A stretch of DNA of 61,499 nucleotides from an uncultured Candidatus Peribacteria bacterium (GTDB lineage: Bacteria > Patescibacteriota > Gracilibacteria > Peribacterales > Peribacteraceae). The notes under the pieces are model-generated. The model worked only from the letters and a program-made list of their open reading frames with translations. It was not told the DNA's origin and searched no databases. The stretch lies in assembly GCA_964508225.1 (NCBI GenBank), contig CAZDRX010000002.1:9592-71090 (forward strand), read 5' to 3'. Positions within the stretch are counted from its first letter, which is position 1. Each line of letters begins with the position of its first letter. This document shows positions 27,801-56,963 of this stretch, in pieces. Position numbers and translations under genes: made by a program.

Positions 27801-29483
27801 CTCACCTGCACCATCGCCTCGCTCCCGTCGGGACAGTCGAGTCCGGTGATCACCGCCACGTACAGCGTGCCCACGATCCCGAACTGCACGCAGACGACCG
27901 TGACGAACACCGCGACGGTTACGACCACGAGCACCGATCCGAACGCCGGCAACAACCAGAGCCAGGTACAGACCGCGGTGACCTGCCAGGCTCCCGCTCA
28001 GGCTGATCTCTTCGTCAACAAGACCGGCCCCGCCTCCGTTCAGTACGGTGCCAACGTCGTCTACACCGTGACAGCCACGAATGCAGGCCCGTCCTCCGCG
28101 TCGGGTGTGACGGTCTCGGACACGATTCCGCTCGGACTGACCTACGTCTCCGTCTCGGGTGCGACGTGCACCCTCGCGCTCCCGTCCGGCAACAATCCCA
28201 CGAACAACGGTTTCCTCTCCTGTGATGTCGGCACGCTTGCGTCCGGCGGCTCCAAGAGCTTCACGCTCACGTTCTCCACCGTCGCCGCCCAGACCTGCAC
28301 GCCGACGACCGTCACGAATCTCGTGAACATCAGCGAGAATGATGCCAACGTCACGGATCCGAACGCCGCGAACAACCAGAGTCAGGCAGTGACCAACCTC
28401 ACGTGCGCCTCCGTGAACGCCGACGTGGCGATCGCGAAGACCGGCCCGACATCGGTTCAGCGCGGTTCCACGCTCACGTACACGCTCACGGCCACGAACA
28501 ACGGTCCGGCCTCGGCCAGCAACGTGATCATCAAGGATCCGTACAACACGACCGAGCTCACCTTCTCTTCCGCCACCGGCGCCACGTGCTCCGTCGTCGG
28601 ATCGGAAGTCCAGTGCACGCTCGGTACGCTCACCTCCGGCCAGACGGTCACGGTTTCTCTCGTCTTCAACGTGAAGACCGTCACAGGCACGTGCTCGCAG
28701 ACCTCGATCCAGAACACCGCCACGATCACGACGGGTTCCACGGACACGGTCACGAGCAACAACACGAGCCAGACCATCACGACCACGCTCACGTGTAGCG
28801 GCGGTACCGTGAACGACATCTCGGTCACGAAGACCGACAACCGCACCACGGCGAACGTCGGTGAGACGCTCCGTTACAGCATCATCCTCACGAACTCGAG
28901 TTCGCAGGTCGTGAACAGTCTCCTCGTGACCGATACGGTTCCGTACGGTCTCACGATCCTCACCGTCTCCGACGGCGGTACGATTAGCAGTCAGCAGGTC
29001 CGTTGGACGGACATCTCTGTTCCCGCCAATTCCAGCCGCACCCTGTACATCGATGTGCAGGTGAGCAGCAGCAACACGAACAACACGGTGCTCCGGAATA
29101 CGGTCGACGTGAACGGCAAGCAGGCGACCGACGAGACGACGGTGTACGTGAACAACACGAATCCGCCGCCGCCGTACTACCCGCCGTACACACCTCCTCC
29201 GTACTACCCGCCGAACCCGCCTCCTCCGTACTATCCTCCGGTTTACAATCCTCCGACCACGGTTCCGCCGGTCTACTACCCGACGCAGCCCGTATACCCG
29301 CAGACGGGTACGAAGGACGGACAGCTCTACGCGCCGGCCACCGACAATGCATCACTCACGAAGGTGAAGGCTCCGGCCACCGCGGATGACAACGGATTCT
29401 CCGCCGTCTTCTACGCCACGATGCTCGCGATGTTCGCTGCCGGATCGGCGATCGCCAGCAGGCTCCTCGCGGGAAGCCTCTAA
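18897..29483 (+). CDS. Giant (3528 aa) secreted cell-surface protein: signal peptide, two novel Cys domains, about 24 Cys/Asp-rich Ca-binding-type repeats, a long DUF11 array, a Pro/Tyr-rich stalk, PQTG and a C-terminal TM anchor
   Basis: Single uninterrupted ORF (start GTG 18897 or ATG 18903). N-terminal signal FSAVALAAVLITQVNLG. I counted 24 C-x-(D/N)-G-x-D-(N/D)-D-x-D-(G/T) motifs, plus many ADLxIxKTGP...TYTxTVxNxGP...DxxPxGLTFVS units (DUF11/TIGR01451 pattern). Confidence 0.9.
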   Translation: MSMEFKKHFSAVALAAVLITQVNLGTIPSFEPLVQKTEAATESFTFGSDGAIRDYVNSLGSGLTPVQIVVNGDDAGGVDSDGATKQKICELKGYPQVVSHTTKSYASCGDNVIAFWNGSQFVWSHHNACARGNDRLNSLTCRRTIPNCQDGVDNDSDGAVDGADFSCQQNPNGDESGPKAQCQDGGDNDGDTYIDALIETNLGGNGNSQDFNQSQLVSFLNGLPPSLMPQPIVAGGTPNADQSTANKICDLAGYTTATITNVGHWASCHDNENVYWNGSQFVWEVDNACQKGNNNLDGLRCTGSRAQCRNGIDDDGDGKVDMADTGCASSNDTSEKQHDPSCSNPQDNDESPNDRKQCNDGVDNDADGKVDMADNGCTSPTDNTERNTVDLSIAFTSVPQTVQKGGPVNYSIFVANGGPDIANNVVFKMPIPVGLTYVPGTSYDRCVQQGTQIVCTNVDINPGQSGTHPINFTASLTLACNAQLQTSFNITSADTDSNPANNQTQNVTSTVVCAQCSDGTDNDNDGATDAADASCHSDLNPANAASYQPTKNDETNPKTACQDGLDNDGDGLTDLLDPGCSGKQDNSEKNPGGPQCDNGIDDDNDGRVDFPQDLGCSGPTDTSELNMQCSDGQDNDNDGAIDAADASCHTDLNPANQASYQPNDNDEANPKTQCQDGVDNDNDGLKDLQDPGCTDPQDNTENSEPAPNVDIMINGSNGPITVLAGTTLNIAWSSTGVQRCNTGTSNMPGWTSNQTLPVNGNAQFTATVSGTYGIQCSKTQTSNFVVQDAVAVVVTPAQCSDGTDNDADGAVDSADASCHSDLNPANAASYQPTKNDETNPKTQCQDGLDNDGDGLSDLQDPGCSGKQDNSEKNPNGAQCDNGIDDDNDGRVDFPQDTGCTSPTDTSELNMQCSDGQDNDNDGAIDAADASCHTDLNPANAASYDPNDNDELNPKTQCQDGLDNDGDGYTDAQDPGCANPQDNSEKNPSGPQCDNGIDDDGDTKVDFPQDTGCSGPTDTTEKNPQCSDGIDNDADGVDDSEDASCHTDLNVSNGASYDPNHNDELNPKTQCQDGLDNDGDGLLDLQDPGCSGKQDNDERNPNGPQCDNGIDDDNDGRVDFPQDTGCTSPTDTSELNMQCNDGQDNDNDGAIDAADASCHTDLNPANQASYQPTDNDELNPKTQCQDGLDNDGDTFIDAQDPSCSGNQDNTESPFDQPSISLSSVSINGCNVTVNYVKQFQTCAHLITTQGSQILHTQNIFCNMSGSVTSQISEFIVPPFASGLSVKLCNGNNYNDCSAPVTVSGGGTCNPSVQCSDGLDNDADGAVDSADASCHSDLNPANANSYQPNDNDELNPKTQCQDGLDNDGDGLSDTQDPGCANPQDNSEKNPSGAQCDNGIDDDNDGKTDFPQDPGCSGPTDTSETDPVAQADLFIVKSGPNQITRGSVIAYTVTAYNLGPNTAQGVTINDPIPAGLTFNAGLSDPSCVQNGNNILCNNTTLAMNQNKTVAIAFNVPTIPNCTQGSLQNIATVSASTTDPNSANNQSQPVITTVLCPTVSICSDGLDNDHDGLIDLQDPGCANNPNDPNEGDGPADLQISMTGPATVDGNQNATYTVTVKNNGPDAATTPFSFRDPIPAGVTFVPGSSSPNCAVSGSDVVCSGITLSVGQQITYTVTFNAPVPVASEPSFLQRLFGVESALAATCGGSFQNQVFLNPAQPDPNSGNNQSSSITTTVTCQPQPPQFTLTKLTSNEIQANEVLTYIITATNTGNSAQNNIRIADLIPAGLTFTTNGSTAGCVQQGTSVFCPAQTFQPGQSVSFTLKFTANANNPCDMDIVNTASIQQNTVTFGQSNQTHTHFYCTTPKLDINKSAPPVSTAGGTVTYTYTLKNTSTTQTAIDVHVFDFYIDPLANHIPSPFTFVSSSLGGACSYDAPNDRVNCDLGNLAPNQLVTFTLTFSIPNNPVLCNTTIINQVDAWPGTDIDNADWDKAQTLVQCPVQNTDVSVVKTGPATLSNDAAVAVSYKLVVKNNTANPAANVIVSDTVPAGLTITSATAPCVIAGNTVTCNLGTLAGNATTNLWIYTTAPVRAYCSQTIANTGTVTTTTTDTNPQNNTSTIQTAFTCTQQHAQLYITKDVAATTVAGQNVTYYYTLQNTSSFTANGVNVYDYYVDTGLNQIPLPFTFVSASGITCHVDTPNNRVACDPVNLTAGQMINFTITFQTPTGAQVCNQTYTNRAESIVGTDQQTLDTDTAATLLQCPAPQFTVVKYADLQVIYPGDTITYSIVTTNAGTQSQTSVRIADNIPANMTFVPTGSTAGCSVQGTAVFCPAQTYTAGQTTTTTLKFQLAGNAPCGGNYLVDNVADVQQNSVSLVSSNHVTTPIACVSAPQFTLTKIGPTVVSPGELMTYIITATNIGSTAQSGIAVYDDVPAGTTFEPNGSTAGCTLIGGDHVYCAQQTYQPGQVATFTLKFRANQNVACNAIILNEAELAQNGNDFLYSNEVQTPVTCASPKLDITKSAPPVSQAGGTVTYTFTLRNTNATVTAIDVNTYDFFIDALANQIPSPFTFLSSSLGGGACVYDPQMDRTVCSIGDMAPNQVITFTMTYSIPNTQQICNQTVINQVDAWPGADDLNADWDKAQTTVQCAPQGADLSILKSGPSSVTKGGNVVYTLTVNNLGPATATNVVTHDQIPQGMTFVSASGPASCVLANNSTEVACTIGSVTAGTPVVLQLTFATQPAAPSCVPSSVTNVATVTASTTDPVMTNNQSQVVTQLTCPLPTTADLAIVKTGPASVIRGNTISYSIVVSNSGPATSTGVTVTDVLPAGLQNIQISGGNCAVTGNGSQASCSIPSIAAGASVTITLTATVPTIQNCTPTAITNTANVTSVTTDPNAGNNQSLVVTTLSCPADTSADVGVLKFGQTSVVRGNTVTYSILATNYGPGTAQNITITDPLPQGFTFVSASGVPCVSQNGNLTCTIASLPSGQSSPVITATYSVPTIPNCTQTTVTNTATVTTTSTDPNAGNNQSQVQTAVTCQAPAQADLFVNKTGPASVQYGANVVYTVTATNAGPSSASGVTVSDTIPLGLTYVSVSGATCTLALPSGNNPTNNGFLSCDVGTLASGGSKSFTLTFSTVAAQTCTPTTVTNLVNISENDANVTDPNAANNQSQAVTNLTCASVNADVAIAKTGPTSVQRGSTLTYTLTATNNGPASASNVIIKDPYNTTELTFSSATGATCSVVGSEVQCTLGTLTSGQTVTVSLVFNVKTVTGTCSQTSIQNTATITTGSTDTVTSNNTSQTITTTLTCSGGTVNDISVTKTDNRTTANVGETLRYSIILTNSSSQVVNSLLVTDTVPYGLTILTVSDGGTISSQQVRWTDISVPANSSRTLYIDVQVSSSNTNNTVLRNTVDVNGKQATDETTVYVNNTNPPPPYYPPYTPPPYYPPNPPPPYYPPVYNPPTTVPPVYYPTQPVYPQTGTKDGQLYAPATDNASLTKVKAPATADDNGFSAVFYATMLAMFAAGSAIASRLLAGSL
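19330..23650 (+). repeat. Intragenic array of Cys/Asp-rich (thrombospondin-type-3 / MopE-like) repeats, including roughly 0.85-kb near-identical DNA super-modules
   Basis: Super-modules start at about 20442, 21291 and 22833. Long near-identical stretches exist, for example gacggtgccgtggactccgcggacgc..agctg.cac at about 21318 and about 22860. Confidence 0.85.
23170..29150 (+). repeat. Intragenic DUF11-domain array with duplicated two-domain super-repeats
   Basis: 24111-24877 and 26046-26819 encode closely similar roughly 255-aa blocks (PQFTLTK...DKAQT.VQC). Related half-blocks lie at about 25270-26045. Confidence 0.8.
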
Positions 29484-34587: not shown

Positions 34588-34626
34588 TTGACATATATTG
34601 ACATATTACTAATTATATTTTAAAAT
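34588..34626 (+). promoter_or_regulatory. Promoter with tandem TTGACATAT direct repeat; TTGACA-N17-TAAAAT
   Basis: TTGACATAT at 34588-34596 and 34598-34606. The -10 box TAAAAT (34621-34626) sits exactly 17 nt after the second TTGACA. Confidence 0.5.
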
Positions 34627-34645
34627 GCTCTCCAAAGATTTTCCT

Positions 34646-35932
34646 ATGACCGAGAATCTCCCTCCAGAGCCGGCTGGTGAGCCCGTCCAGAAACCTGTGA
34701 CGGATGCCGCCATGAGCGTACACCGCTTCGAGATGCCGCTGAAGCCGACGGACGTCTACCGTGCCCTTGCCATCACGCGTGGAGACGTCGATCTGGCGAT
34801 GTTCAAGGATCAGGCAACGCAGCATGGTGACAAGCGTGCGAAGGAAGCCTCCAAGAGATACGCCGTTCCCGACGCGGGCACATCGACGGAAGTCGAGCGC
34901 GTGCACGCACTGGCAGAACGCATCCTTGGCCTTCTCAGCATGAGCCGCTACCGCCGCGGACCGATCCAGTTTGTTCAGGAAGGTAAGCCAGTTTTTCTTC
35001 AGAAAATCTCCGATGCCATTCTTCAGGAAAAGCCGGTTGAGCTCATTATGAGTTTCTACGGCCTGAAGGTTCAGAATCCGCTCAAGACGTACGGTACGGA
35101 CGGCAGCGAGGTCGACGTTTCGGAGATGGCATCACTCCTCCGTTTCTACGAAATCACGCAGGCCATCGGCAAGATGTACGGCCCCGGCGCCGAGTTTCAC
35201 ATCGCCTGTGACGGACGAAAGTACGCGGAGGCACTCGGATACACCAATGCGCAGGCCAGCGGTTACTACCGAAACTTGAATGCACTCTGTGCTGCGCTCG
35301 GAATCCAGCAGTCCGTCCACCTCCCCGACGAGGCGGATTTCTATCCTGAAGATCATCAGGAGAGAACCGCGACACATCTGCACCGTATCCGTACCGCCTA
35401 CGCGCAGAATGACCCTGCGGTCACCGGTTTCGTGACGAAGCTCCGTGCCAGTATGTGTCTCTCCATGCCTGTGAATACCGGAGAGATCGATGTTGAACAG
35501 CTGCGCTTCGCATTCTCGGCGATGACCGATACGGAGCTCTGTGCCCATTGCCCTGCCGCTCTCGAGGTCCGTCGTCACCTTCTCGATCGTTCGCTCGATT
35601 GCACCCTCAAGTACGTCGCGGTGTATGACGCCGTGAAGGAAGCGGGTGTCCTCGAGCAGATCGCACCTGCAGCGGTGCGTGCCACCGTGCATCCCAAGCC
35701 CGGACAGATCGGTTTGTATGCAGTCAATGAGCGCACCAACGACGTCTTCCCGCATCATGGACAAGGAGTCGTTCAGACGGGGGGAGCCGGTATGACCATC
35801 GATAATGTCCGCGTCCGTTTTCGCGCCGACCTCGAGCGTCAGGATCCGCAATTCTGCGCCATCTGTCTGCCGAAAGATCGTTACCCCTTCTCTGACGAAC
35901 AGCATCCTTTCCTCATTGCCCCCAACGTCTGA
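34646..35932 (+). CDS. PvcA/IsnA/Dit1-family protein (isonitrile-synthase-like, PF05141-type)
   Basis: KPVELIMSFYGLKVQNPLKTYG..VDVSE....YGPGAEFHIACDGRKYAEALGY......GYY aligns by eye with the PvcA/IsnA core (PIxFVLPAFPxKSPNPxKVLG..PDxxE...YxPGAxxxICSDGRVFSDLVGV...Y). The later VRATVHPKPGQIG...PHHG matches LRLSIHPQ...IG...PWHG. The first ATG (34625) overlaps the -10 box, so ATG 34646 is preferred. Confidence 0.5.
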   Translation: MTENLPPEPAGEPVQKPVTDAAMSVHRFEMPLKPTDVYRALAITRGDVDLAMFKDQATQHGDKRAKEASKRYAVPDAGTSTEVERVHALAERILGLLSMSRYRRGPIQFVQEGKPVFLQKISDAILQEKPVELIMSFYGLKVQNPLKTYGTDGSEVDVSEMASLLRFYEITQAIGKMYGPGAEFHIACDGRKYAEALGYTNAQASGYYRNLNALCAALGIQQSVHLPDEADFYPEDHQERTATHLHRIRTAYAQNDPAVTGFVTKLRASMCLSMPVNTGEIDVEQLRFAFSAMTDTELCAHCPAALEVRRHLLDRSLDCTLKYVAVYDAVKEAGVLEQIAPAAVRATVHPKPGQIGLYAVNERTNDVFPHHGQGVVQTGGAGMTIDNVRVRFRADLERQDPQFCAICLPKDRYPFSDEQHPFLIAPNV

Positions 35933-47541: not shown

Positions 47542-47707
47542 AGGCGCATCGTACACAGCGGGACTGAAAGAGGGAATGGCGCAGATGCCCCTCCTCGAAA
47601 AACACCTTGAGACACAATCTGAATCCGATCCGTAGCGATTGCTTGACATCACACAGCGCAGAAGGAAAGATCCCCAACATACTTTCTTTTCCCTCCTCTT
47701 TCATTTT

Positions 47708-48517
47708 ATGAACACAAAACTCCTGTCCGCAGTCGCTGGTGTGGCCATGTTCCTGAACGCAACCACTGCGCTTGCCAGCCCTCCACGTGCCGATCTCCAG
47801 GTGCAGTTGCAGGCACCCTCCAGCGTACAGATCTCCACAGCTACCACGTACACAGCCACGGTGAAGAACCTCGGCCCGGCCACGACGAATGTGAGCCTGG
47901 TGATCGAGTTCCCTCTGACGGACACCAGCCCGACAGTCGCCATCCTTGGCACGGTCACGGAATCAGACTCCCGCTGTTCCATCGTATCGAACAAGATCAC
48001 GTGTGCCTTCAGCGGCCTGAAGAAGAACAATTCAGTGACCGTCAATTACTTGTACACGGCTCCTGTATCGACCAAGTCGCTCGGGATGAAAGCAATCGCG
48101 AGTTCGTCCGTTACCGATCCGAACACGGGCAACAATATGGCGACGGTTGTGCCGAACCTCGTGTATCCGGTTCGCAACATCACCTCCGCAACAGTCCTGA
48201 ATTCTCACTGTACGGGCACGAATCTGACATCGTACTTCGAGTGCGCGCTCTTCCCGAGTTCTATCTCCACGCACATCGCTACGTTCAATGCGGATCAGAC
48301 CATCACGCTCACAGAGCCCGGTTACGCCGGTACGTGGTCCCAGAATGCGGCCAAGACGACGCTGTTCTTTGAGTACACGGAGGCGAGTGGCTCCGGCAGC
48401 TCTGCGATCGCTCAGTTCAATGGTTTCGCCATCAATGGCAGCAACTGCTTCGATGGTCTGACGACGTTCATCCCCGCCACGACGTACGTCAGTCCGTACC
48501 GCGTCTGTCTTCAGTAA
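47708..48517 (+). CDS. Secreted DUF11-domain protein
   Basis: Signal peptide MNTKLLSAVAGVAMFLNATTALA, then ADLQVQLQAPSSVQISTATTYTATVKNLGPATTNVSLVIEFP (DUF11 pattern). Confidence 0.65.
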   Translation: MNTKLLSAVAGVAMFLNATTALASPPRADLQVQLQAPSSVQISTATTYTATVKNLGPATTNVSLVIEFPLTDTSPTVAILGTVTESDSRCSIVSNKITCAFSGLKKNNSVTVNYLYTAPVSTKSLGMKAIASSSVTDPNTGNNMATVVPNLVYPVRNITSATVLNSHCTGTNLTSYFECALFPSSISTHIATFNADQTITLTEPGYAGTWSQNAAKTTLFFEYTEASGSGSSAIAQFNGFAINGSNCFDGLTTFIPATTYVSPYRVCLQ

Positions 48518-48795: not shown

Positions 48796-51273
48796 ATGCT
48801 TTCAATGAGCTTATTTAAAAGAGGAAGACACAAAAGGCCTAAAAAGCAAAAGAAGGTGCAGCTAGATGAAATAGCTCAAATTGGAGATATGATTATTGCT
48901 AGAAAGGGGAAAGAAGTATTCATGCAAAGCGTAAGGCAAAAGGGGGAACATGAACGAATAAAGGCACAGTTCATTGCTGATTATCCATCAATATGTGCGG
49001 AAATTGATGCCTCTATCAGTCGAATAAAAGAGTTAGTGCATTCAATGGAGCCACTTCAGCTTCTACACTGTAGTTATTTTAGTTTTGCAGTTGCCATGAT
49101 GGATAAGCCATCTGAATTCCAAATGGGAACCAATGAAGTTATGCTTGCTCGAATGCTTGACTACATTCAGGCAGTAATCGTCAGCATTCCGCCTTTAGTA
49201 GAATACCCAAAGTTCGATCAGTCTCGTTGGGATGAATTATCCAAAGAAGTATCGAAGCTTTATGGCGAATTAATGTCTAAATTTTTCATTGCTCAAACAT
49301 TTAAACTGAGTACCGAAGATTCTAGATTTGATAATGAAGAATATTCAGAAGTATTTCATCAATCTCAATCACTAAGGCTCACGGTTAGAGGTGATCGCTA
49401 TGTTTACCACGAAGTTCAACACTTTAAGGATTTTTTAACTCCACATGACGCTGTTTTGCGAGAGCTATTCAATGTAACAGCTGAGGATTTGGTTCAGGGT
49501 TTTTCCCAAATTCTTTCATCATTAACTGTTGGGGTTCAAAAATCATTTGATGATTTGTTTGAGTTGCAACAGAGATCAGTTGATGCAACTGAGGAAAAGC
49601 TAAAGACCGAAAGGGATTTGCCAGAAGATGTTGGTGCATTGCTGAGATCTGCAGTGGATGCCGACCCTGAATTGAAAGCCCTGGCTGATTCTTTTAAAGG
49701 TAAGTTCTTTGAATTAGATCTTTTTGATTTGCAGAAAGTAACTTCTCTTCCATCCAATGTTCTAGATGCTCTTTCTCTGTCTGCTGGTGCAAACCCTGAA
49801 TTCAATCAGGGTGAATATGCTGGATGGCCACTCAAAGAATTACCTACAAGAGTTCATCCATTCTTGAAAATTAATAATAAATATTATTGTTTTGATATGT
49901 ATGGTCTTGCCGACAATCTTTATCGCGGAATCGAAAATGCAATAATGAAACTTAAGCCGGAGTACAGAGTGACTTGGAATAAACTACAGCAAGAGATTAC
50001 AGAAGAGACTGCCCTCACATTATTTAGAAGAGCTTTACCTGAGGCTTGGAGCCAAAAGAATCTTTATATTAAGATAAAGGAAGGAGTGTTCGAAGAAATT
50101 GCAGATGGATTGGTAATCTTTGATGGACATTTGATTGTGATTCAAGTTAAAGCAGGCAAATTTACTTGGACTGCACCAACAACGGATTTCGATGCTTATA
50201 TCACATCATTAAAAACATTAATTGAGGCTCCTGCGCGACAGGGTGAAAGACTAATAAAATTAGTAGAAGAAAATCCCGAAGTTCCTTTGTTTGATATCCA
50301 TGGAAACTTAGTACATACAATTCGTTCTTGTGAAATTAAGCACATGTCAGTGTGCTCACTCACAATGGAGAATATCAATGAATATGCAGCCCGATCAGAT
50401 AAGCTGAAAGGCTTGGGAATTAGCATTGAAGATATACCATTATGGGCACTCTCATTTGATGATTTAAGGGTTTATGTCGACATTATTGATAACCCTTTAA
50501 TCTTTATACATTTTTTAGAATTAAGAGTTCGTGCAGCAGTTGCTAAAGCCGTGAAGATGACCGATGAATTAGATCATCTAGGACTCTATTTATCGACAAA
50601 TAATTATATTCAAGTTGCTGAGGATATGGGTGGTGGGCAGCCGAATACTCACACCGCATTTTTTGGGTATAGAGAAAAAATTGATGAATATTTTGCCAAT
50701 CTGCAGTTTGACCCAGCGAGTGCAGTAAAGCCAAAACAGGACTTGCCTCAACGATTACAAGAAATTATTGACGTATTAGAAGCTAAAAAAATCAAAGACA
50801 GAACATTCTTAGCTTCTTTTCTCCTGAATGGAGGATCAGAATTAAGAAAGGATATCGATGATGGAATAAAGGTATGTCTTGAAAGAAGTAAATTCAGGGG
50901 TGTTGTTGTTCCAATGAGCTTATTCGGCTCCGATTGTCAGGTCACGTTTAACTGCATTAGACCCGATGTTGCTCAGCCATCAGAGCAGGAGTTAAAAGAA
51001 AAGTTGTATATCACTCTTATTAGTGCCGAAGAAAAAGAGAGATTAATGGTTAATCTGTATTTCGATATGGAGCTAAAAATTACCGATGTAAAGTTTGAAA
51101 CGCTAAAAATAAGTGATTTGAACGATGAACAGCTAGTTGCTATGAAAATTGAAACTGAGAAAGCAAAAGTCAAAAGAGTTTCGTTTCATAAACGAGAGTA
51201 TGGCAAGATCGGCAGAAATGATCTCTGTCCATGTGGTAGTGGGAAAAAGTACAAGAAATGCTGTGGGCGCTAA
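48796..51273 (+). CDS. Large hypothetical protein with a C-terminal SEC-C metal-binding motif and a possible NERD/PD-(D/E)xK-like core
   Basis: 825 aa, ending GRNDLCPCGSGKKYKKCCGR (SEC-C motif). The central IADGLVIFDGHLIVIQVKAGKF resembles the NERD nuclease-fold strand pattern with Q in place of E. A perfect TATAAT (48792-48797) overlaps the first ATG, so ATG 48805 may be the real, leaderless start. Confidence 0.7.
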   Translation: MLSMSLFKRGRHKRPKKQKKVQLDEIAQIGDMIIARKGKEVFMQSVRQKGEHERIKAQFIADYPSICAEIDASISRIKELVHSMEPLQLLHCSYFSFAVAMMDKPSEFQMGTNEVMLARMLDYIQAVIVSIPPLVEYPKFDQSRWDELSKEVSKLYGELMSKFFIAQTFKLSTEDSRFDNEEYSEVFHQSQSLRLTVRGDRYVYHEVQHFKDFLTPHDAVLRELFNVTAEDLVQGFSQILSSLTVGVQKSFDDLFELQQRSVDATEEKLKTERDLPEDVGALLRSAVDADPELKALADSFKGKFFELDLFDLQKVTSLPSNVLDALSLSAGANPEFNQGEYAGWPLKELPTRVHPFLKINNKYYCFDMYGLADNLYRGIENAIMKLKPEYRVTWNKLQQEITEETALTLFRRALPEAWSQKNLYIKIKEGVFEEIADGLVIFDGHLIVIQVKAGKFTWTAPTTDFDAYITSLKTLIEAPARQGERLIKLVEENPEVPLFDIHGNLVHTIRSCEIKHMSVCSLTMENINEYAARSDKLKGLGISIEDIPLWALSFDDLRVYVDIIDNPLIFIHFLELRVRAAVAKAVKMTDELDHLGLYLSTNNYIQVAEDMGGGQPNTHTAFFGYREKIDEYFANLQFDPASAVKPKQDLPQRLQEIIDVLEAKKIKDRTFLASFLLNGGSELRKDIDDGIKVCLERSKFRGVVVPMSLFGSDCQVTFNCIRPDVAQPSEQELKEKLYITLISAEEKERLMVNLYFDMELKITDVKFETLKISDLNDEQLVAMKIETEKAKVKRVSFHKREYGKIGRNDLCPCGSGKKYKKCCGR

Positions 51274-51454: not shown

Positions 51455-51861
51455 TGGTGGAGATGCCGGGAGTTGAACCCGGGTCCAACGTGTACGCCGA
51501 AGGTCCATACGATCATGTTCCTTTCGTTTTCTCATCCCGTCAGGAAGGAACAAAGAGAGGGAGAGAGATGTGACGCAGTATTCGGGATCAACGTCGCGTC
51601 ACGCGATGATCCAACCTCGCTAGTGACGCCACTCCAATCCAGCGAGGATCAAGAGGGTAGCGTGGTCCGAATTGAATCAGACCTTAGGCATAGGCCGGAG
51701 CCAGCCTTGCCGAAAGATCGGCAAAGATGTTCTCGAGAGCCTTAGCCATTGTGCTGGTTTTGGCAGCTATAGTTGCTCAGCGTGGGTAACGGGTACAGAG
51801 AGCAAACCCGGATCGAGACACAAGCGACGCAGATTCACGCTGTCGAAAGCCTGTCATCCCC
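51455..51861 (-). ncRNA. ssrA: tmRNA (transfer-messenger RNA)
   Basis: Minus-strand 5' end is GGGGATGACAGGCTTTCGACAGCG. The 3' end is GGACCCGGGTTCAACTCCCGGCATCTCCACCA (T-arm plus acceptor plus CCA). The internal tag ORF ends ...LAPAYA-TAA. Confidence 0.9.
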
Positions 51862-52703: not shown

Positions 52704-55700
52704 TTATGCCTTCTTCTCGAAGCGCACGCCCACGGTGGCGCCTCCCACATCGATGTCCGCAGATGCGCCCTTGTTCTCCTCCAGCACGCCGCGCGTTTCT
52801 TCCAGCACGAGCGCGCCGTGCGTTTCCATGATCTTCTCCGCGCCGTTGAGCGCGATCCTGATGGTGTCACCGAACTCGAGCCCCGCGTCTTTGCGCATCT
52901 GCTGGATGCCGTGCACGAGCTCTCTGGCCTGACCCTCCAGCGTGAGCGCATCCGTGAGCTTGGAGTCCAGACTGACGACGATGCCGCGGCTTGCGGCCAC
53001 GGCCTGACCTTCCTTGGACTGATAGATGATCTTGGCCTCGTCCGCTGTGAATTCCTCGCCCATGATGAGGATCTTCCCGTCTTTTTCCTCGAATTGCCCC
53101 GCTTTGCCCGCCTTGATCACTTCCTGCACTTTGCCGCCGAGACGCTTGCCGGTCTTGCGGGCGTCCACCATGACGATCGCCGATGCCATCGCGTTCGCAT
53201 CCGGAATCGCGATGACCTGCTTCACGTTCAGTTCTTCGGCGATGAGATCGCTCACCACACCTTCCGTATCGGAGGGCGGGAGCGCGTAGCTGACGGACTG
53301 CAGCGGCTGGCGGACTTTGGCCTTCGCGTCACTGCGCAGTGACAGACCGAGCGTCACCACCGTGCGGGTGTTGTCCATGAGCGTGAGGAGCTTCCTCTCG
53401 TCGGCCGTGAGCTCGCGCTGCGCCGGCCAGTCCGTGAAGTGCACGGAGTCGTGATCGGCGGCGACGAGATTCAGGTAGATGTCCTCCGCGATGAACGGAC
53501 AGAACGGCGCGAGGAGCTGCGTGAGCGTGAGGAGCACGCGGTAGAGCGTGTCGAAGGCTTCGGTCTGACCCTCCTCTTTGCCGGAGAGACGGCGGCGGCT
53601 CTGACGGACGTACCAGTTCGTGAGGTCGTCGATCGAGTCCGCGATCTCCGCGCACGTGGCCGAGAGGTCGTAGCCGTCGAGTTCCTTCGTCACGCGGTTC
53701 ACGAGATCCTGCGTCTTGGCCACGATCCAGAGATCGAGCTGATGACGGCTCTGTGCGTTCTTCAGCGACGAATCGATGCTCGGCTTCCAGTCCACCGTAT
53801 TCGCCGTGGTCACGAAGAGGCGGTAGGCATTCCAGAGGGGGAGCAGCACCGACCTCACCACTTCCGTCACGAGCTTCTCGGAGAAGCGCAGATCCTCGCC
53901 TCTGACCGCGGGTGAGCCCATGAGCGCGAAGCGCACCGCGTCGGCGCCGTGCTTCTTCACGATCTCGGTGGGTTCCGGATAGTTCTTGAGGCGCTTGCTC
54001 ATCTTCTTGCCGTCTTCGGCCAGCACGATGCCGTTCACGATGCAGTGCTTGAAGGCGGGGCAGTGGAAGAGCGCGGTACTGAGCACCATCAACGTATAGA
54101 ACCAGCCGCGCGTCTGATCGAGCCCTTCCGCGATGAAGTCGGCGGGGAAGCCCGGGGGCGCTTTGCCCTGGTGCTCGAACGGGAAGTGTTCCTGCGCGTA
54201 GGGCATGGAACCGCTCTCGAACCAGCAGTCGAGCACGTCGCCGATGCGGCGCATCTGGGGCTTCAGGCTGAAGGTGAAGGCGTGCGCGTTCTTCGGCTCG
54301 ATCCGGAGCGCCTCGTCGTACGACATCGTGCCTGTGATCACGCTGAGCGCGCGGAGGAAACCGGAGTGAGCCACGACGAGGACGCGCTTGCCCGCGTATT
54401 CTTTGAGCAGCCAGTCGTGCGCGCGGCGGACTCTCGTCATGAACGCGTCGAACGATTCGCCGCCCTCGGGCGTCTGCTTCAGGAGCGCCGCGCCGCGGAT
54501 ATCTTTGGCGAGCTTGAGCTGCGTGCTCACATCCGTCATCGTCTGGCCCGTCCATGCCCCGAAGTCGCGTTCGCGGAGCACGTCGTAGTGGCCGGCGACC
54601 GTACTGCCGAGTTCCTTTGCGATGATGTCCGCGGTTTCCCGCGCGCGCTTCAGATCCGATGTCAGAATGACGTCGAACGACTTCTCCGTTTTGAGCTTCT
54701 CCGCGGCTTTCTTCGCCTGCGCCTTGCCCGTCTTGTTCAGCGGCATGTCCACGTTGGATCCCTGAATGATCGATTCCTTGTTCATATCCGTCTCGCCGTG
54801 GCGTACGAGGGTGAGATCCACGGATCCCTTGGCGGCGTCCGTGCCCCACTGCAGATCGTCCACCGTTTCCTTGTGCAGATCCATCTGCTTCTGGGTGGCG
54901 TGGTCGTAGTAGAAGGAGCGGTCGCTCGCTACCTCGGGGTACGGCTGGTTTACGATCTTCTGCGGCTCCTGACCCGTGAAGAGGTGCGTGAAGTTCATGA
55001 CGAGATCGGCGTGCGTGACGACCACGATGGCCTGACCTTTGTGTTTCTTCAGGACGTCGTCGAGGAACGCGCCGACGCGGAGATCGATGTTGCTCCACGT
55101 CTCCATGCCCTGAAAGTGGTAGATGCTCTCCACTTTTCCGCTCTCGAGCTTGTGTGCTCGGCGCTCGCGGATGAACGTGAGGTCGTCGAAGTCGATGTGC
55201 TTGCCTTCGTACTCGCCGAAGTTCACTTCCCTGAGGCGCTCGTCGATGAAGAGCTCGGCGCCGGTGGCTGCCGCCACGGCTTCGGCGGTCATTTTCGTCC
55301 GCAGAAGCGGCGAGCAGTAGATGGCGGATACCTTCACTTTCTCGCTTGCGGAAGCCACCCGCTTGCCCAGCTCCTTCGCCTGTTTCTGGCCATTCTCGGT
55401 GAGCGGAGTGCCCGGTTCCTTGCCTTGGTAGATCTTGTCCACGTTGCCCTGACTCTCGGCGTGCCGCGCGACGATAACCTTCGTGAAGCGGTCGGTGGTG
55501 TGCGCCATGAGGTCATCGCGCGAGCCGATCACTTCCACTTCGCCCGTCACGGAATTCTTCCAGATCGGGAGCGGCGTTCCCCAGAAGCGGTTACGGGAGA
55601 TCGCCCAGTCGCGCGCGCCTTCGAGCCACTTGCCGAAGCGTCCGTCCTTGATGTGCTCGGGAACCCACGACGTCTTCGCGTTGCTCTCGAGCATCTTCGC

Positions 55701-56963
55701 TTTGATCTTCTCCACCGCGACGAACCATGAACTCGTGGCGTAGTTGAGGAGCGGAGAGTCGCACCTCCAGCAGTGCGGGTAGCTGTGCATGAAGCTCTGG
55801 CTCGTGAAGAGTTTCCTATGATCCTTGAGCCATTTGGCGATGGCCTTGTCGCCGCTCTGGTGGTCATCTTTCGGCTTGGCGGAGAGTCCCGCAAAGTCTG
55901 TCACCGCCTTCTTGAACGTGCCGTCGATATCCACGTGCTGGAGGATCGCCACCTTCTCGCGCTGGCCGACTTGGAAGTCGTCATCGCCGTACCCCGGAGC
56001 GATGTGCACGATGCCCGTGCCGTCCGTCACCGTCACGAAGTCGCCTTCCACGATGCGGAACGCGGTGTCTTTGTACTGCTCCGCGTAGTAGGGGAAGAGC
56101 GGCGCGTACCTCTTGCCTGCGAGCGACTTGCCCGTGACCTCCTCCTTGATCTCGAATTCTTTTCCTTTGAAGACGGACTCCGCGAGATCCTTGGCGACGA
56201 TGAAGGTTTTTTTCTCGCAGCTGACCTTCGCGTACGTCACCTCGGGATGCACGGCGAGGAAGAGGTTGCCCGGGAGCGTCCAGCCCGTCGTCGTCCATGC
56301 GAGCACGAAGGTGTCGGCTTCGCCCTCGAGCGCGAACATCGCGGTGATGGAGTAGTCCTGGATGTCCTTGTAGCCCTGTGTGACTTCGAAGTTAGAAAGC
56401 GGCGTCTGGCAGCGCGGACACACGTGCATCGGCTTGTGACCCTCGTAGATGAGCCCTTGGCTGTGCAGCTGCTTGAACACCCACCAGATGCTCTCCATGT
56501 AATCCGGATCCATCGTGCGGTAATCCCAGTCCATGTCCACGAAGCGTCCGAGACGCTCGACGGTCGTCCTCCATTCATGGGTGTAGCGCTGCACGGCGGT
56601 GCGGCAGAGTGCATTGAAGTTGGCGACGCCGAGAGCCTCGATGTCCTTCTTGGACTTGAGGCCCTGCTCCTTCTCGATCTCATTCTCCACGGGGAGTCCG
56701 TGGCAGTCCCAGCCGAAACGGCGCTTCACATATTTGCCGCGCATCGTCTGGTAGCGGGGGATCACGTCTTTGATCGTGCCGGCGAGGATGTGTCCGTAGT
56801 GGGGGAGTCCGGTCGCGAACGGCGGACCGTCGTAGAAGCTGAAGACTTCGCCGTCTTTCCTCCGCGCGATCGATCGCTTGAAGACATCCTCTTCACGCCA
56901 ATACTTGAGGATCCCGAGTTCTAAATCCGGGAAGGATTGGCCGGCGTCGACGGGGTCGAACAT
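52704..56963 (-). CDS. ileS: Isoleucyl-tRNA synthetase with two inserted histidine-phosphatase (PGAM-like) domains
   Basis: 1419 aa. HIGH motif PHYGHIL, editing-domain WTTTGWTLPGN, KMSKS motif KKMSKRL. Residues about 495-668 (IVARHAES...SPLLRT...VVVTHADL) and about 716-898 (LVRHGETD...SDLKRARET...LVVAHSGF) are histidine-phosphatase signatures. Confidence 0.9.
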   Translation of the reverse strand: MFDPVDAGQSFPDLELGILKYWREEDVFKRSIARRKDGEVFSFYDGPPFATGLPHYGHILAGTIKDVIPRYQTMRGKYVKRRFGWDCHGLPVENEIEKEQGLKSKKDIEALGVANFNALCRTAVQRYTHEWRTTVERLGRFVDMDWDYRTMDPDYMESIWWVFKQLHSQGLIYEGHKPMHVCPRCQTPLSNFEVTQGYKDIQDYSITAMFALEGEADTFVLAWTTTGWTLPGNLFLAVHPEVTYAKVSCEKKTFIVAKDLAESVFKGKEFEIKEEVTGKSLAGKRYAPLFPYYAEQYKDTAFRIVEGDFVTVTDGTGIVHIAPGYGDDDFQVGQREKVAILQHVDIDGTFKKAVTDFAGLSAKPKDDHQSGDKAIAKWLKDHRKLFTSQSFMHSYPHCWRCDSPLLNYATSSWFVAVEKIKAKMLESNAKTSWVPEHIKDGRFGKWLEGARDWAISRNRFWGTPLPIWKNSVTGEVEVIGSRDDLMAHTTDRFTKVIVARHAESQGNVDKIYQGKEPGTPLTENGQKQAKELGKRVASASEKVKVSAIYCSPLLRTKMTAEAVAAATGAELFIDERLREVNFGEYEGKHIDFDDLTFIRERRAHKLESGKVESIYHFQGMETWSNIDLRVGAFLDDVLKKHKGQAIVVVTHADLVMNFTHLFTGQEPQKIVNQPYPEVASDRSFYYDHATQKQMDLHKETVDDLQWGTDAAKGSVDLTLVRHGETDMNKESIIQGSNVDMPLNKTGKAQAKKAAEKLKTEKSFDVILTSDLKRARETADIIAKELGSTVAGHYDVLRERDFGAWTGQTMTDVSTQLKLAKDIRGAALLKQTPEGGESFDAFMTRVRRAHDWLLKEYAGKRVLVVAHSGFLRALSVITGTMSYDEALRIEPKNAHAFTFSLKPQMRRIGDVLDCWFESGSMPYAQEHFPFEHQGKAPPGFPADFIAEGLDQTRGWFYTLMVLSTALFHCPAFKHCIVNGIVLAEDGKKMSKRLKNYPEPTEIVKKHGADAVRFALMGSPAVRGEDLRFSEKLVTEVVRSVLLPLWNAYRLFVTTANTVDWKPSIDSSLKNAQSRHQLDLWIVAKTQDLVNRVTKELDGYDLSATCAEIADSIDDLTNWYVRQSRRRLSGKEEGQTEAFDTLYRVLLTLTQLLAPFCPFIAEDIYLNLVAADHDSVHFTDWPAQRELTADERKLLTLMDNTRTVVTLGLSLRSDAKAKVRQPLQSVSYALPPSDTEGVVSDLIAEELNVKQVIAIPDANAMASAIVMVDARKTGKRLGGKVQEVIKAGKAGQFEEKDGKILIMGEEFTADEAKIIYQSKEGQAVAASRGIVVSLDSKLTDALTLEGQARELVHGIQQMRKDAGLEFGDTIRIALNGAEKIMETHGALVLEETRGVLEENKGASADIDVGGATVGVRFEKKA

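What the first reader, a model, noticed from the sequence alone, without database searches (positions are those of the whole stretch)
54270..55481. Isoleucyl-tRNA synthetase carrying two embedded, apparently intact histidine-phosphatase (PGAM-like) domains
The ileS ORF is 1419 aa, against roughly 900-1100 aa for known IleRS. The excess comes from two insertions inside the catalytic/anticodon-junction region.

The first module sits between the conserved WGTPLPIW...EVIGS segment and the DLH(R/K)..VD element. It spans aa about 495-668 and reads VARHAES...SPLLRTKMTA...EVNFGEYEG...VVVTHADL.

The second module sits between DLHKETVDD and MRRIGDVLDCWFESG, where many IleRS carry a Zn-binding knuckle. 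It spans aa about 716-898 and reads LVRHGETD...SDLKRARETA...ERDFGAWTG...LVVAHSGF.

Both modules keep the RH(G/A)E, R, E and H catalytic residues of the histidine phosphatase superfamily, and the reading frame is continuous on both sides. I do not know of any aaRS described with such modules. They could hydrolyse a phosphorylated nucleotide by-product (for example Ap4A-type or (p)ppGpp-type molecules) or a phosphorylated substrate coupled to charging; that is speculation.
Basis: partly seen in the sequence, partly recalled or inferred. Interest (0 to 1): 0.78.

Follow-up and report, generated by a model that had tools for sequence, protein, structure and literature searches.

The report
Isoleucyl-tRNA synthetase hosting two phosphatase domains
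An essential protein-synthesis enzyme (isoleucyl-tRNA synthetase) of an uncultivated Peribacteria (CPR) bacterium carries two complete, apparently active histidine-phosphatase enzymes inserted in one small surface subdomain; the arrangement is conserved across the lineage, recurs in related synthetases, and I found no paper describing it.

Summary
ORF 52704..56963 (minus strand, 1419 aa) is an intact type-2 IleRS (TIGR00392 866 bits, cut-off 621). It carries two Pfam His_Phos_1 domains (combined E 4.9e-81) at aa ~494-690 and ~714-902.

If both modules are deleted in silico, the protein aligns as one stretch to yeast and human IleRS. That places both insertions in two loops of the CP3 subdomain.

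Assembly error is excluded. More than 130 homologues from independent assemblies (Ca. Peribacteria/Peregrinibacteria, 55-78% identity) share the architecture. The phosphatase residues Arg-His-Arg-Glu-His are invariant in both modules.

AlphaFold2 models both modules confidently, and Foldseek matches them to PhoE, GpgP and PspA phosphatases.

Related CPR IleRS carry 0, 1, 2 or 3 modules at four or more sites. ValRS of Ca. Sungbacteria carries one inside its CP3 zinc knuckle, and one ValRS fragment has four.

Neither module reaches the cut-off of any characterised phosphatase subfamily, so the substrate is unknown. I found no paper describing this.

Verdict: a real, selection-maintained bifunctional synthetase-phosphatase, and a new variant of the "aaRS with an extra domain" theme. 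Whether phosphatase activity is coupled to tRNA charging is unresolved.

The parts
52704..56963 (-). ileS ORF, 1419 aa: type-2 (eukaryote-like) isoleucyl-tRNA synthetase with two nested histidine-phosphatase modules
   Evidence: ORF. (Pfam domains). (TIGR00392 866 bits, cut-off 621). (AF2 model of aa 1-1200 matches IleRS structures, TM-score normalised to target 0.78-0.90).
56790..56801 (-). HIGH signature (H55-Y-G-H58)
   Evidence: Invariant in 116/116 homologues.
55764..56375 (-). CP1 editing domain (aa ~197-400) with the WTTTGWTLPGN and GTGIVHIAPGYG motifs
   Evidence: matches isolated IleRS editing-domain structures 1wk8 and 1udz. (T224 T225 T226 W228 G315 G317 H320 invariant).
54231..55598 (-). 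Expanded CP3 subdomain (aa 456-911), equivalent to S. cerevisiae IleRS residues 459-526. The stretch from the WGxPxP motif to the DCWFESG motif inside it is 458 aa here, against 66-74 aa in module-free relatives.
   Evidence: colinear alignment after in-silico excision of the modules. (CP3 boundaries from PMC7955072). (segment lengths).
54894..55484 (-). Histidine-phosphatase module 1 (aa 494-690). Catalytic residues R500, H501 (nucleophile), R555, E579, H651. Strongly conserved basic cap segment F(V/I)(K/R)ARRAHK...ESIYHFxGMETW. Inserted at the equivalent of yeast IleRS R495/N496.
   Evidence: HMM hits. (conservation; mean 59% identity to the window protein, 24 invariant columns). (10-residue-block mean pLDDT 81-99, mostly >90; PhoE/PspA-like fold).
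54855..54881 (-). Native IleRS CP3 element DLHKETVDD (aa 695-703), separating the two modules
   Evidence: D695, L696, H697 and D702 are invariant. It aligns to DLHRESVD of human IleRS and DLHRDVID of yeast IleRS, and is present in module-free relatives.
54258..54824 (-). Histidine-phosphatase module 2 (aa 714-902). Catalytic residues R721, H722 (nucleophile), R773, E798, H866. Variable cap. Inserted at the equivalent of yeast IleRS G517/D518.
   Evidence: Pfam best stretch 717-902. (best subfamily hit CobC, 125.5 bits against cut-off 162.9). (conservation). (fold).
53991..54005 (-). KMSKS signature (K987-M-S-K-R991)
   Evidence: K-M-S-K invariant in 116/116 homologues.
53295..53735 (-). Anticodon-binding domain (aa 1077-1223)
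   Evidence: Anticodon_1, E 4.6e-26.
52719..53249 (-). C-terminal DUF5915 domain (aa 1239-1415)
   Evidence: DUF5915, E 3.3e-22. It is also present in the related module-free and module-bearing IleRS hits.

Best explanation
This is the working type-2 isoleucyl-tRNA synthetase of a Candidatus Peribacteria (Peregrinibacteria, CPR/Patescibacteria) bacterium. Two complete branch-1 histidine-phosphatase domains were inserted, at separate times, into two neighbouring loops of the small CP3 subdomain of the catalytic domain. The result is a single-chain synthetase-phosphatase.

Shown:
- The IleRS body is canonical. HIGH, KMSKS, the CP1 editing motifs, the anticodon-binding domain and the C-terminal domain are all intact.
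- Both modules have the full histidine-phosphatase fold and the full catalytic set (Arg-His nucleophile pair, second Arg, Glu proton donor, second His).
- These residues are invariant across a family that has diverged to about 55% identity.
- The same kind of module recurs in other CPR IleRS and ValRS, in 1-4 copies and at several sites.

Inferred:
- Each module hydrolyses, or possibly transfers, a phosphomonoester through a phospho-histidine intermediate (His501, His722), with Glu579/Glu798 as general acid. This is how PhoE, GpgP and PspA work.
- Module 1 has a highly conserved, basic cap, which suggests one specific anionic substrate. Module 2 has a variable cap, as broad-specificity phosphatases do.
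- The two modules and CP3 form a compact unit fixed on the synthetase body (high pTM).
- Insertions have been fixed repeatedly in IleRS and ValRS, and among the closest relatives of the modules only in those two enzymes. So I think physical linkage to a class Ia synthetase is itself selected. The substrate, and whether catalysis is mechanistically coupled to aminoacylation, are not known.
For: - Intact ORF and domains.
- Clean insertion into CP3.
- Catalytic residues invariant in 116 homologues, and R-H-R-E-H present in all 65 aaRS-embedded modules examined.
- Conservation level: module 1 (59% mean identity to the window protein) is as conserved as the editing domain (58%) and close to the anticodon-binding domain (64%).
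- Fold: AF2 of aa 445-955 gives mean pLDDT 86 and pTM 0.77, with both modules mostly above pLDDT 90. Foldseek top hits are PhoE 1h2e, GpgP 4qih/6s2q, PspA 4ij6, TIGAR 3dcy and Rv3214 2a6p, at E about 1e-14 and TM-score to target 0.64-0.80.
- Whole-body model: aa 1-1200 gives pTM 0.80 and matches IleRS structures at TM-score to target up to 0.90.
- Lineage-wide occurrence in independent assemblies. The flanking genes (Peptidase_M20, ileS, Phage_holin_4_2) match those in a relative, although the peptidase gene is on the opposite strand to ileS in the window.
- Recurrence in other architectures and in ValRS.
Against: - No activity was measured.
- Neither module reaches the curated cut-off of any characterised phosphatase subfamily, so the substrate class is open.
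- Catalytic-residue conservation is also compatible with a phospho-ligand sensor that binds but does not turn over.
- In some lineages modules sit after KMSKS, near the anticodon-binding domain (site 3). That is far from the tRNA acceptor end, which argues against a geometry-dependent coupling to the CCA end.
- I could not check whether these genomes also hold a second, module-free ileS, or free-standing His_Phos genes. Only the 61-kb window, which has none, and 10-kb flanks of relatives were available.
- The compact-unit inference rests on pTM alone. No PAE values or coordinates were available.
Confidence: 0.75

Rival explanations
1. Hosted metabolic enzymes. The modules are ordinary small-molecule phosphatases or mutases (for example phosphoglycerate mutase-like, phosphoserine phosphatase-like or CobC-like) that the reduced CPR genome parks inside a highly expressed essential protein. 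They act on their own substrates, with no mechanistic link to tRNA charging.
For: - The best weak subfamily similarities are to dPGM_arch, PspA and CobC.
- The closest free-standing relatives (40-49% identity to some embedded modules) are about 180-215-aa 'PhoE'-type proteins.
- Copy number and insertion site vary, as expected if only a tolerant surface loop is needed.
- Site 3 is remote from the acceptor-end pocket.
- JGI already annotates some members as 'isoleucyl-tRNA synthetase/bisphosphoglycerate-dependent phosphoglycerate mutase'.
Against: - All subfamily scores are far below the equivalog cut-offs: 98 vs 225, 125.5 vs 162.9, 87 vs 350.
- Among the 150 closest representatives of the modules, every long host protein examined is IleRS or ValRS. 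No other host was seen.
- The AlaRS in the same window has no module.
- Up to four copies in one ValRS is odd for a housekeeping metabolic step.
Confidence: 0.3
2. Coupled activity on a nucleic-acid or nucleotide substrate of the synthetase. The modules would remove a phosphate or pyrophosphate from the tRNA 3' end (for example after toxin action), or destroy a phosphorylated by-product or inhibitor of aminoacylation (PPi, Ap4A-type nucleotides, aminoacyl-adenylate mimics). They would then act as an in-cis repair or detoxifying function.
For: - CP3 directly follows the CP2-CP3 linker, which lines the tRNA CCA/reveromycin pocket in yeast IleRS (PMC7955072).
- Module 1 has an invariant basic cap (R602, K605) suited to a polyanionic ligand.
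- Insertion recurs specifically in two class Ia synthetases.
- A family member additionally carries a GNAT acetyltransferase in CP1 (P0013), and NCBIfam holds an 'ileS_w_GNAT' model.
- From my own knowledge: GNATs such as MccE detoxify aminoacyl-nucleotide antibiotics, and toxSAS toxins pyrophosphorylate the tRNA CCA end.
Against: - To my knowledge no histidine-phosphatase superfamily member is known to act on tRNA ends.
- Site-3 and CP2-side insertions are far from the acceptor end.
- A general by-product role would predict modules in many aaRS families, not mainly IleRS and ValRS.
- There is no PADLOC (defence) hit.
Confidence: 0.2
3. Non-catalytic use. The modules are ligand-binding or structural domains (a phospho-metabolite sensor regulating IleRS, or an intramolecular pseudo-dimer that merely stabilises CP3), and the active-site residues are kept for binding only.
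For: - High pTM (0.77 and 0.80) suggests rigid integration.
- Module 2 is only moderately conserved outside the catalytic residues (46% mean identity, 11 invariant columns).
- Free-standing tandem di-phosphatase proteins of about 405 aa are common among the closest relatives, so pairing in cis is a recurrent theme.
Against: The complete catalytic pentad, including the Glu proton donor that is not needed for binding, is invariant in both modules over 116 sequences and in all 65 embedded modules from other architectures. Single-module enzymes exist, so a pseudo-dimer is not required.
Confidence: 0.12
4. Artefact: a chimeric assembly, a pseudogene, or an intein-like mobile insertion that is removed from the mature protein.
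For: The gene is unusually long. A sharp GC change lies 1.4 kb downstream of it.
Against: - GC is uniform (about 58-67%) across the whole gene, and the frame is open.
- The 120 best-scoring protein clusters from NCBI, JGI, ENA and Logan assemblies all carry PF00133 plus PF00300, and 133 of 241 classified full-length relatives have the same two-site (s1+s2) architecture.
- 14 GTDB species representatives carry both modules.
- No Hint/intein or endonuclease domain is found.
- The junction residues are not intein-like (sequence).
- No flanking direct repeats.
Confidence: 0.01

Closest known systems
Type-2 (eukaryote-like) isoleucyl-tRNA synthetase, e.g. S. cerevisiae cytoplasmic IleRS (7D5C, 8WND), Priestia megaterium IleRS2 (8C8U), T. 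thermophilus IleRS (1ILE)
   Same: The full domain order is shared: Rossmann fold with HYGH and KMSKR, CP core, CP1 editing, CP2, CP3, anticodon-binding domain. phmmer E-values are 1e-210 to 1e-241. The predicted structure superposes with TM-score to target 0.78-0.90. After the modules are deleted in silico, the alignment is one stretch with gaps of only 5-6 residues at the two excision points.
   Different: The WGxPxP-to-DCWFESG stretch of CP3 is 458 aa instead of 66-74 aa, because two ~190-aa enzymes are nested in two of its loops. None of the solved IleRS chains matched aligned to the module regions.
Small branch-1 histidine phosphatases: PhoE/YhfR (1H2E, 1EBB), glucosyl-3-phosphoglycerate phosphatase Rv2419c (4QIH), phosphoserine phosphatase PspA (4IJ5/4IJ6), CobC, TIGAR
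   Same: Same fold (Foldseek E about 1e-14, TM-score to target 0.64-0.80). Same RHG...R...E...H catalytic residues. Similar size (about 180-200 aa), with a short cap rather than the long dPGM cap.
   Different: The modules are not free-standing but nested in another enzyme. Sequence scores are below every equivalog cut-off. Module 1 has its own conserved basic cap and a conserved C-terminal tail (HQPYP...TFFWDH) that leads back into CP3.
Rv2228c-type bifunctional RNase H / acid phosphatase (NCBIfam NF005567)
   Same: It is a precedent for a histidine-phosphatase domain fused to a nucleic-acid enzyme. Its phosphatase half is among the best NCBIfam hits of both modules (121 and 87 bits).
   Different: That protein is an end-to-end fusion, not a nested insertion. 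Scores are below its cut-off (326). The partner enzyme is different.
Other idiosyncratic insertions in class Ia synthetases: the NCBIfam 'ileS_w_GNAT' family (NF040702), and, from my own knowledge, the LeuRS leucine-specific domain and the appended domains of eukaryotic aaRS
   Same: It is the same general phenomenon: a class Ia synthetase acquires an extra folded domain in a connective-peptide loop. One member of this very family (P0013) also has a GNAT inserted in CP1.
   Different: Here the guest is a complete, catalytically equipped phosphatase. It is present in 1-4 copies and recurs in IleRS and ValRS of several CPR lineages. The window protein does not belong to ileS_w_GNAT (283 bits against cut-off 1999).

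Membership tests
Isoleucyl-tRNA synthetase (TIGR00392), type 2 | Equivalog HMM score above the curated cut-off | tested here: met
   866.2 bits against cut-off 621.4. ValRS, LeuRS and MetRS models score below their cut-offs.
Isoleucyl-tRNA synthetase (TIGR00392), type 2 | Class I signatures HIGH and KMSKS | tested here: met
   HYGH at aa 55-58 and KMSKR at aa 987-991, invariant in 116 homologues.
Isoleucyl-tRNA synthetase (TIGR00392), type 2 | CP1 editing domain with threonine-rich and GTG-VH motifs | tested here: met
   WTTTGWTLPGN and GTGIVHIAPGYG are present and conserved. The region matches isolated editing-domain structures.
Isoleucyl-tRNA synthetase (TIGR00392), type 2 | Anticodon-binding helical domain plus DUF5915 C-terminal domain | tested here: met
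   Anticodon_1 E 4.6e-26 and DUF5915 E 3.3e-22.
Isoleucyl-tRNA synthetase (TIGR00392), type 2 | Charges tRNA-Ile with isoleucine, and is the only IleRS of the cell | not testable with these tools
   This needs an enzyme assay and a whole-genome inventory. Only the 61-kb window and 10-kb flanks of relatives were available.
Histidine phosphatase superfamily, branch 1 (PF00300) | Pfam score above the gathering threshold, for each module | tested here: met
   271.5 bits for two stretches, against cut-off 21.7. Single-module relatives score 107-150 bits.
Histidine phosphatase superfamily, branch 1 (PF00300) | RHG motif with nucleophilic His, a second Arg, a second His and a Glu proton donor | tested here: met
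   Module 1: R500 H501 R555 E579 H651. Module 2: R721 H722 R773 E798 H866. All are invariant or 115/116.
Histidine phosphatase superfamily, branch 1 (PF00300) | Alpha/beta phosphoglycerate-mutase-like fold | tested here: met
   AF2 pLDDT is mostly above 90 over both modules. Foldseek PDB hits are PhoE, GpgP, PspA, TIGAR and dPGM at E 1e-12 to 1e-14.
Histidine phosphatase superfamily, branch 1 (PF00300) | Phosphatase or mutase activity through a phospho-histidine intermediate | not testable with these tools
   Requires biochemistry.
Cofactor-dependent phosphoglycerate mutase (TIGR01258, NF038349 dPGM_arch) | Score above the family cut-off | tested here: not met
   Module 1: dPGM_arch 97.9 against 225. 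Module 2: pgm_1 62.5 against 81.7 and dPGM_arch 75.5 against 225.
Alpha-ribazole phosphatase CobC (TIGR03162) | Score above the equivalog cut-off | tested here: not met
   Module 2 scores 125.5 and module 1 scores 87.3, against 162.9. The whole-protein score of 202 is the sum over the two modules.
Phosphoserine phosphatase PspA (NF045917) | Score above the equivalog cut-off | tested here: not met
   87.3 and 68.9 against 350.
Intein / Hint-type self-splicing insertion | Hint domain, and Cys/Ser/Thr plus Asn junction residues | tested here: not met
   No Hint, intein or LAGLIDADG hit. The junctions read ...DRFTK|VIVARH and ...FSLKPQ|MRRIG. The modules are ordinary His_Phos_1 folds.
IleRS with GNAT domain (NF040702 ileS_w_GNAT) | Score above the cut-off; GNAT domain present | tested here: not met
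   283 bits against 1999, and no GNAT Pfam hit in the window protein.

The most novel reading that the evidence does not exclude
Class Ia synthetases of CPR bacteria (IleRS, ValRS) have repeatedly recruited active histidine phosphatases that work in cis on a substrate of the charging reaction itself. Examples would be dephosphorylating a damaged or toxin-modified tRNA 3' end, or hydrolysing a phosphorylated inhibitor or by-product at the active site. That would add a previously unknown repair or detoxifying activity to aminoacyl-tRNA synthetases, alongside hydrolytic editing.
Probability: 0.15. Interest if true: 0.88.

Novelty: new variant of a known kind. Interest (0 to 1): 0.7.

Why it matters
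Aminoacyl-tRNA synthetases are among the most conserved enzymes known. Their extra domains have mostly been studied in eukaryotes, where they give non-translational functions.

Here a bacterial IleRS carries two complete enzymes of a different class inside its catalytic domain. Their active sites are kept under selection across a whole lineage. The same solution arose in related IleRS (0-3 modules, four or more sites) and in ValRS of another CPR lineage.

Three consequences follow:
- It offers a natural system for studying how domain insertion into an essential enzyme is tolerated and fixed.
- It points to an unknown phosphatase function that is physically tied to branched-chain-amino-acid tRNA charging in organisms with minimal genomes.
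- It affects annotation and metabolic reconstruction of CPR genomes. NCBI names these proteins only 'class I tRNA ligase family protein', while JGI calls some of them phosphoglycerate mutase fusions.

If the activity is coupled to tRNA or to adenylate chemistry, it would be a new kind of synthetase-associated quality control.

Tried and rejected
- Misassembly, frameshift or pseudogene. Rejected: the frame is open, GC is uniform over the gene, and the same architecture appears in more than 130 independent sequences and 14 GTDB species representatives.
- Intein or mobile-element insertion. Rejected: no Hint or endonuclease domain, non-intein junctions, and no flanking repeats. The only 40-nt direct repeat is the homologous PL(T/N)xxGxxQAK-coding stretch of the two modules.
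- Recent tandem duplication as the origin of the two modules. Rejected: they are only 28% identical and are separated by a native IleRS element. However, module 2 has duplicated in tandem in three relatives.
- Assignment to a characterised phosphatase subfamily (dPGM, CobC, PspA, GpmB, SixA). All scores are below cut-off.
- Anti-phage defence link. There is no PADLOC hit for either module.
- Literature. Six full-text searches found no description of a synthetase with histidine-phosphatase domains. A term search of the Peribacteria genome paper found no occurrence of 'isoleuc', 'phosphatase' or 'phosphoglycerate mutase', and only an unrelated use of 'synthetase'.
- Names of the closest free-standing phosphatases. 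The look-up returned almost no annotation, only one 'PhoE'.
- Gene neighbourhood. The flanking genes are a Peptidase_M20 gene (divergently oriented in the window, co-oriented in a relative), ileS, and a Phage_holin_4_2-family membrane protein. They give no functional hint.
- dN/dS was not attempted. Relatives are 49-78% identical at the protein level, so synonymous sites are saturated.
Full report
**1. The observation**

The ORF listing shows one uninterrupted ORF at 52704..56963 on the minus strand, 1419 aa. The finding's coordinates 54270..55481 are aa 495-898 of this ORF. GC content is uniform across the gene, about 58-67%.

Pfam finds:
- tRNA-synt_1, split into two stretches (E 1.6e-136)
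- two His_Phos_1 stretches (combined E 4.9e-81, best 717-902)
- Anticodon_1 (aa 1077-1223)
- DUF5915 (aa 1239-1415)

NCBIfam scores the ileS equivalog TIGR00392 at 866 bits against a cut-off of 621.

**2. Where the modules sit**

phmmer against PDB sequences gives eukaryote-like/type-2 IleRS as the best matches: human 9w01, yeast 8wnd/7d5c, C. albicans 6ldk, P. megaterium IleRS2 8c8u and T. thermophilus 1ile. The match always falls into two stretches, query 5-490 and 901-1370.

I then deleted both modules in silico. The remaining aa 430-1000 aligned to these IleRS as one stretch, with gaps of only 5-6 residues at the two excision points.

By the yeast numbering, module 1 lies at R495/N496 and module 2 at G517/D518. 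The native DLH(R/K)xxxD element lies between them. The yeast IleRS paper defines CP3 as residues 459-526, and the CP2-CP3 linker (453-465) as part of the tRNA-CCA/reveromycin pocket (PMC7955072). Both modules are therefore nested in two loops of CP3.

In module-free relatives of the same clade, the stretch from WGxPxP to DCWFESG is 66-74 aa and has no cysteine knuckle. In the window protein it is 458 aa.

**3. The modules are complete and look active**

Structure prediction:
- An AF2 model of aa 445-955 (46-sequence alignment) has mean pLDDT 86 and pTM 0.77. Both modules are mostly above pLDDT 90.
- Foldseek against the PDB returns PhoE/YhfR, mycobacterial GpgP (Rv2419c), PspA, TIGAR, Rv3214 and dPGMs at E 1e-12 to 1e-14. 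For the five small phosphatases the TM-score normalised to the target is 0.64-0.80.
- A model of aa 1-1200 has pTM 0.80 and superposes on IleRS structures with target-normalised TM-score 0.78-0.90. The synthetase body is predicted to be canonical, and the modules to have a defined position on it. That last point is an inference from pTM only.

Conservation in 116 full-length homologues at 55-78% identity:
- Module 1: R500, H501, R555, E579 and H651 are all 116/116.
- Module 2: R721, H722, R773 and E798 are 116/116; H866 is 115/116.
- The synthetase motifs HYGH, KMSK, WGTPLPIW and DCWFESG are equally conserved.

Mean identity to the window protein is 59% for module 1, against 58% for the editing domain and 64% for the anticodon-binding domain. 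Module 2 is 46%. Module 1 has a strongly conserved basic cap (D594 L595 R602 K605 ... E612 S613 H616 G619 M620 E621 W623); module 2 has a variable cap.

The two modules are only 28% identical to each other, so they are old and separate.

Scanned alone, neither module reaches any curated subfamily cut-off. Module 1's best is dPGM_arch at 98 against 225. Module 2's best is CobC at 125.5 against 162.9.

**4. Not an artefact, and a lineage-wide trait**

The 5.8-billion-protein search lists 120 clusters. All carry PF00133 plus PF00300, are mostly 1419-1654 aa long (four shorter, truncated entries of 1149-1372 aa), and come from NCBI, JGI, ENA and Logan assemblies. The named ones are Candidatus Peribacteraceae, Peribacteria or Peregrinibacteria.

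A scan of GTDB species representatives with module-specific peptides finds 14 Ca. Peribacteria/Peribacterales species with both modules at 49-64% identity.

A relative on a 430-kb contig has the same flanking genes as the window: Peptidase_M20, ileS, and a Phage_holin_4_2-family membrane protein. In the window the peptidase gene lies on the opposite strand to ileS.

**5. A wider phenomenon**

A search of 1.84 billion representatives with aa 470-910, followed by domain scans and two more homology searches, shows several other architectures.

(a) IleRS of related CPR lineages (Peregrinibacteria, Gracilibacteria, Altimarinota). I classified 241 full-length sequences:

| Architecture | Count |
|---|---|
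| No module | 44 |
| Site 1 only | 27 |
| Site 2 only | 12 |
| Sites 1 + 2 | 133 |
| Sites 1 + 2 + 2 (tandem duplicate of module 2) | 3 |
| Site 1 + site 3 (after KMSKS, just before the anticodon-binding domain) | 14 |
| Between DCWFESG and KMSKS | 2 |
| Site not resolved by my motif rules | 6 |

These architectures are clade-coherent on a rough NJ tree of the module-excised core. That implies several gains and some losses.

(b) ValRS of Ca. Sungbacteria. Twenty of the 119 retrieved ValRS sequences carry one module. It lies between the two Cys pairs of the CP3 zinc knuckle (CVAC...[module]...CKC). The neighbouring ~700-aa Parcubacteria ValRS lack it.

(c) One ValRS fragment carries four modules.

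(d) Free-standing ~405-aa tandem di-phosphatase proteins are common among the closest relatives of the modules.

All 65 aaRS-embedded modules examined keep R-H-R-E-H. The AlaRS encoded in the same window has no module, and no other His_Phos ORF occurs in the window.

**6. Mechanism**

Shown: an intact IleRS with two intact phosphatase active sites under purifying selection.

Inferred: each module hydrolyses, or transfers, a phosphomonoester through a phospho-His intermediate, as PhoE, GpgP and PspA do. Module 1 probably has one specific anionic substrate, judging from its invariant basic cap.

Among the closest relatives of the modules, insertions have been fixed repeatedly and only in IleRS and ValRS. 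I therefore think linkage to a class Ia synthetase is itself selected.

The data do not tell whether catalysis is coupled to charging. CP3 adjoins the CCA pocket, which favours coupling. The site-3 and CP2-side insertions are remote from it and favour a 'hosted enzyme' reading. I give the rivals with probabilities. The artefact and intein rivals are refuted.

**7. Comparison with what is known, and novelty**

The protein passes every testable membership criterion for IleRS type 2 and for His_Phos branch 1. It fails those for dPGM, CobC, PspA, inteins and ileS_w_GNAT.

Precedents exist for histidine phosphatases fused to nucleic-acid enzymes (Rv2228c-type RNase H/acid phosphatase). Precedents also exist for extra domains in class Ia synthetases: NCBIfam ileS_w_GNAT, and a GNAT in CP1 of family member P0013.

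Six full-text searches, and a term search of the Peribacteria genome paper, found no description of a synthetase with nested histidine phosphatases. Databases hold hundreds of such sequences. They are annotated generically by NCBI, and as 'isoleucyl-tRNA synthetase/bisphosphoglycerate-dependent phosphoglycerate mutase' by JGI.

I rate this a new variant of a known kind, a synthetase with an acquired domain, and of fairly high interest to specialists.

**8. Limits**

- No coordinates or PAE values were available.
- No whole genomes were available. I could not check for a second ileS, or do a census of free-standing phosphatases.
- The NJ tree is approximate.
- Absence of literature holds only for the searchable library.

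Noticed in passing
window 48796-51273 (+), next to 51455-51861 (-): A low-GC island (37-38% GC, against about 60% elsewhere) holds a single 825-aa ORF. Its only Pfam hit is a C-terminal SEC-C motif, and its PADLOC hits are weak (PDC-S12, E2-like tails). It lies directly beside the tmRNA gene and looks like horizontally acquired DNA at ssrA.
   Followed up: partly
window 51455-51861 (-): tmRNA gene with tag peptide AKTSTMAKALENIFADLSARLAPAYA (ARAGORN).
   Followed up: no
window 18897-29483 (+): Giant 3528-aa ORF made of 15 DUF11 repeats plus DUF7507, DUF7619, NPCBM_assoc and bMG10-like parts. It is probably a huge surface protein, as reported for Peribacteria (PMC4736985). A second DUF11 protein lies at 47639-48517.
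   Followed up: partly
window 13950-15755 (-): A short alanyl-tRNA synthetase of 601 aa (tRNA-synt_2c plus tRNA_SAD only; no further Pfam domain reached E 1e-5). It has no phosphatase module, so it serves as an internal control.
   Followed up: partly
proteins P0048, P0104, P0114 (relatives, 1636-1654 aa): IleRS with three histidine-phosphatase modules. Module 2 is duplicated in tandem (copies about 50% identical), and all copies keep R-H-R-E-H.
   Followed up: yes
protein P0013 (relative, 1618 aa): Besides the two phosphatase modules, this IleRS has a GNAT acetyltransferase domain of about 180 aa inserted in the CP1 editing domain, near window-protein position 214-218. NCBIfam holds a separate 'ileS_w_GNAT' model.
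   Followed up: partly
proteins P0273/P0233 and P0276-P0315 (Ca. Sungbacteria ValRS); P0130 (ValRS fragment): Valyl-tRNA synthetases with one His_Phos_1 module inserted between the two Cys pairs of the CP3 zinc knuckle. One ValRS fragment has four modules, the first of which lies upstream of the WWGHRIP motif.
   Followed up: partly
proteins P0129, P0395-P0407 (Ca. Altimarinota / Gracilibacteria IleRS, ~1420-1485 aa): An alternative two-module IleRS architecture. One module is in CP3 site 1. The other lies about 75 aa after KMSKS, just before the anticodon-binding domain.
   Followed up: partly
proteins P0133-P0258 (about 50 free-standing proteins of ~400-430 aa, e.g. P0139 from a Woesearchaeota MAG): Tandem di-histidine-phosphatase proteins are the commonest non-synthetase relatives of the modules. 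Their function is unknown.
   Followed up: no
window 34625-35932 (+): A 435-aa ORF with a DIT1_PvcA (pyoverdine/dityrosine biosynthesis, isonitrile-synthase-like) domain. This is unexpected in a reduced CPR genome.
   Followed up: no
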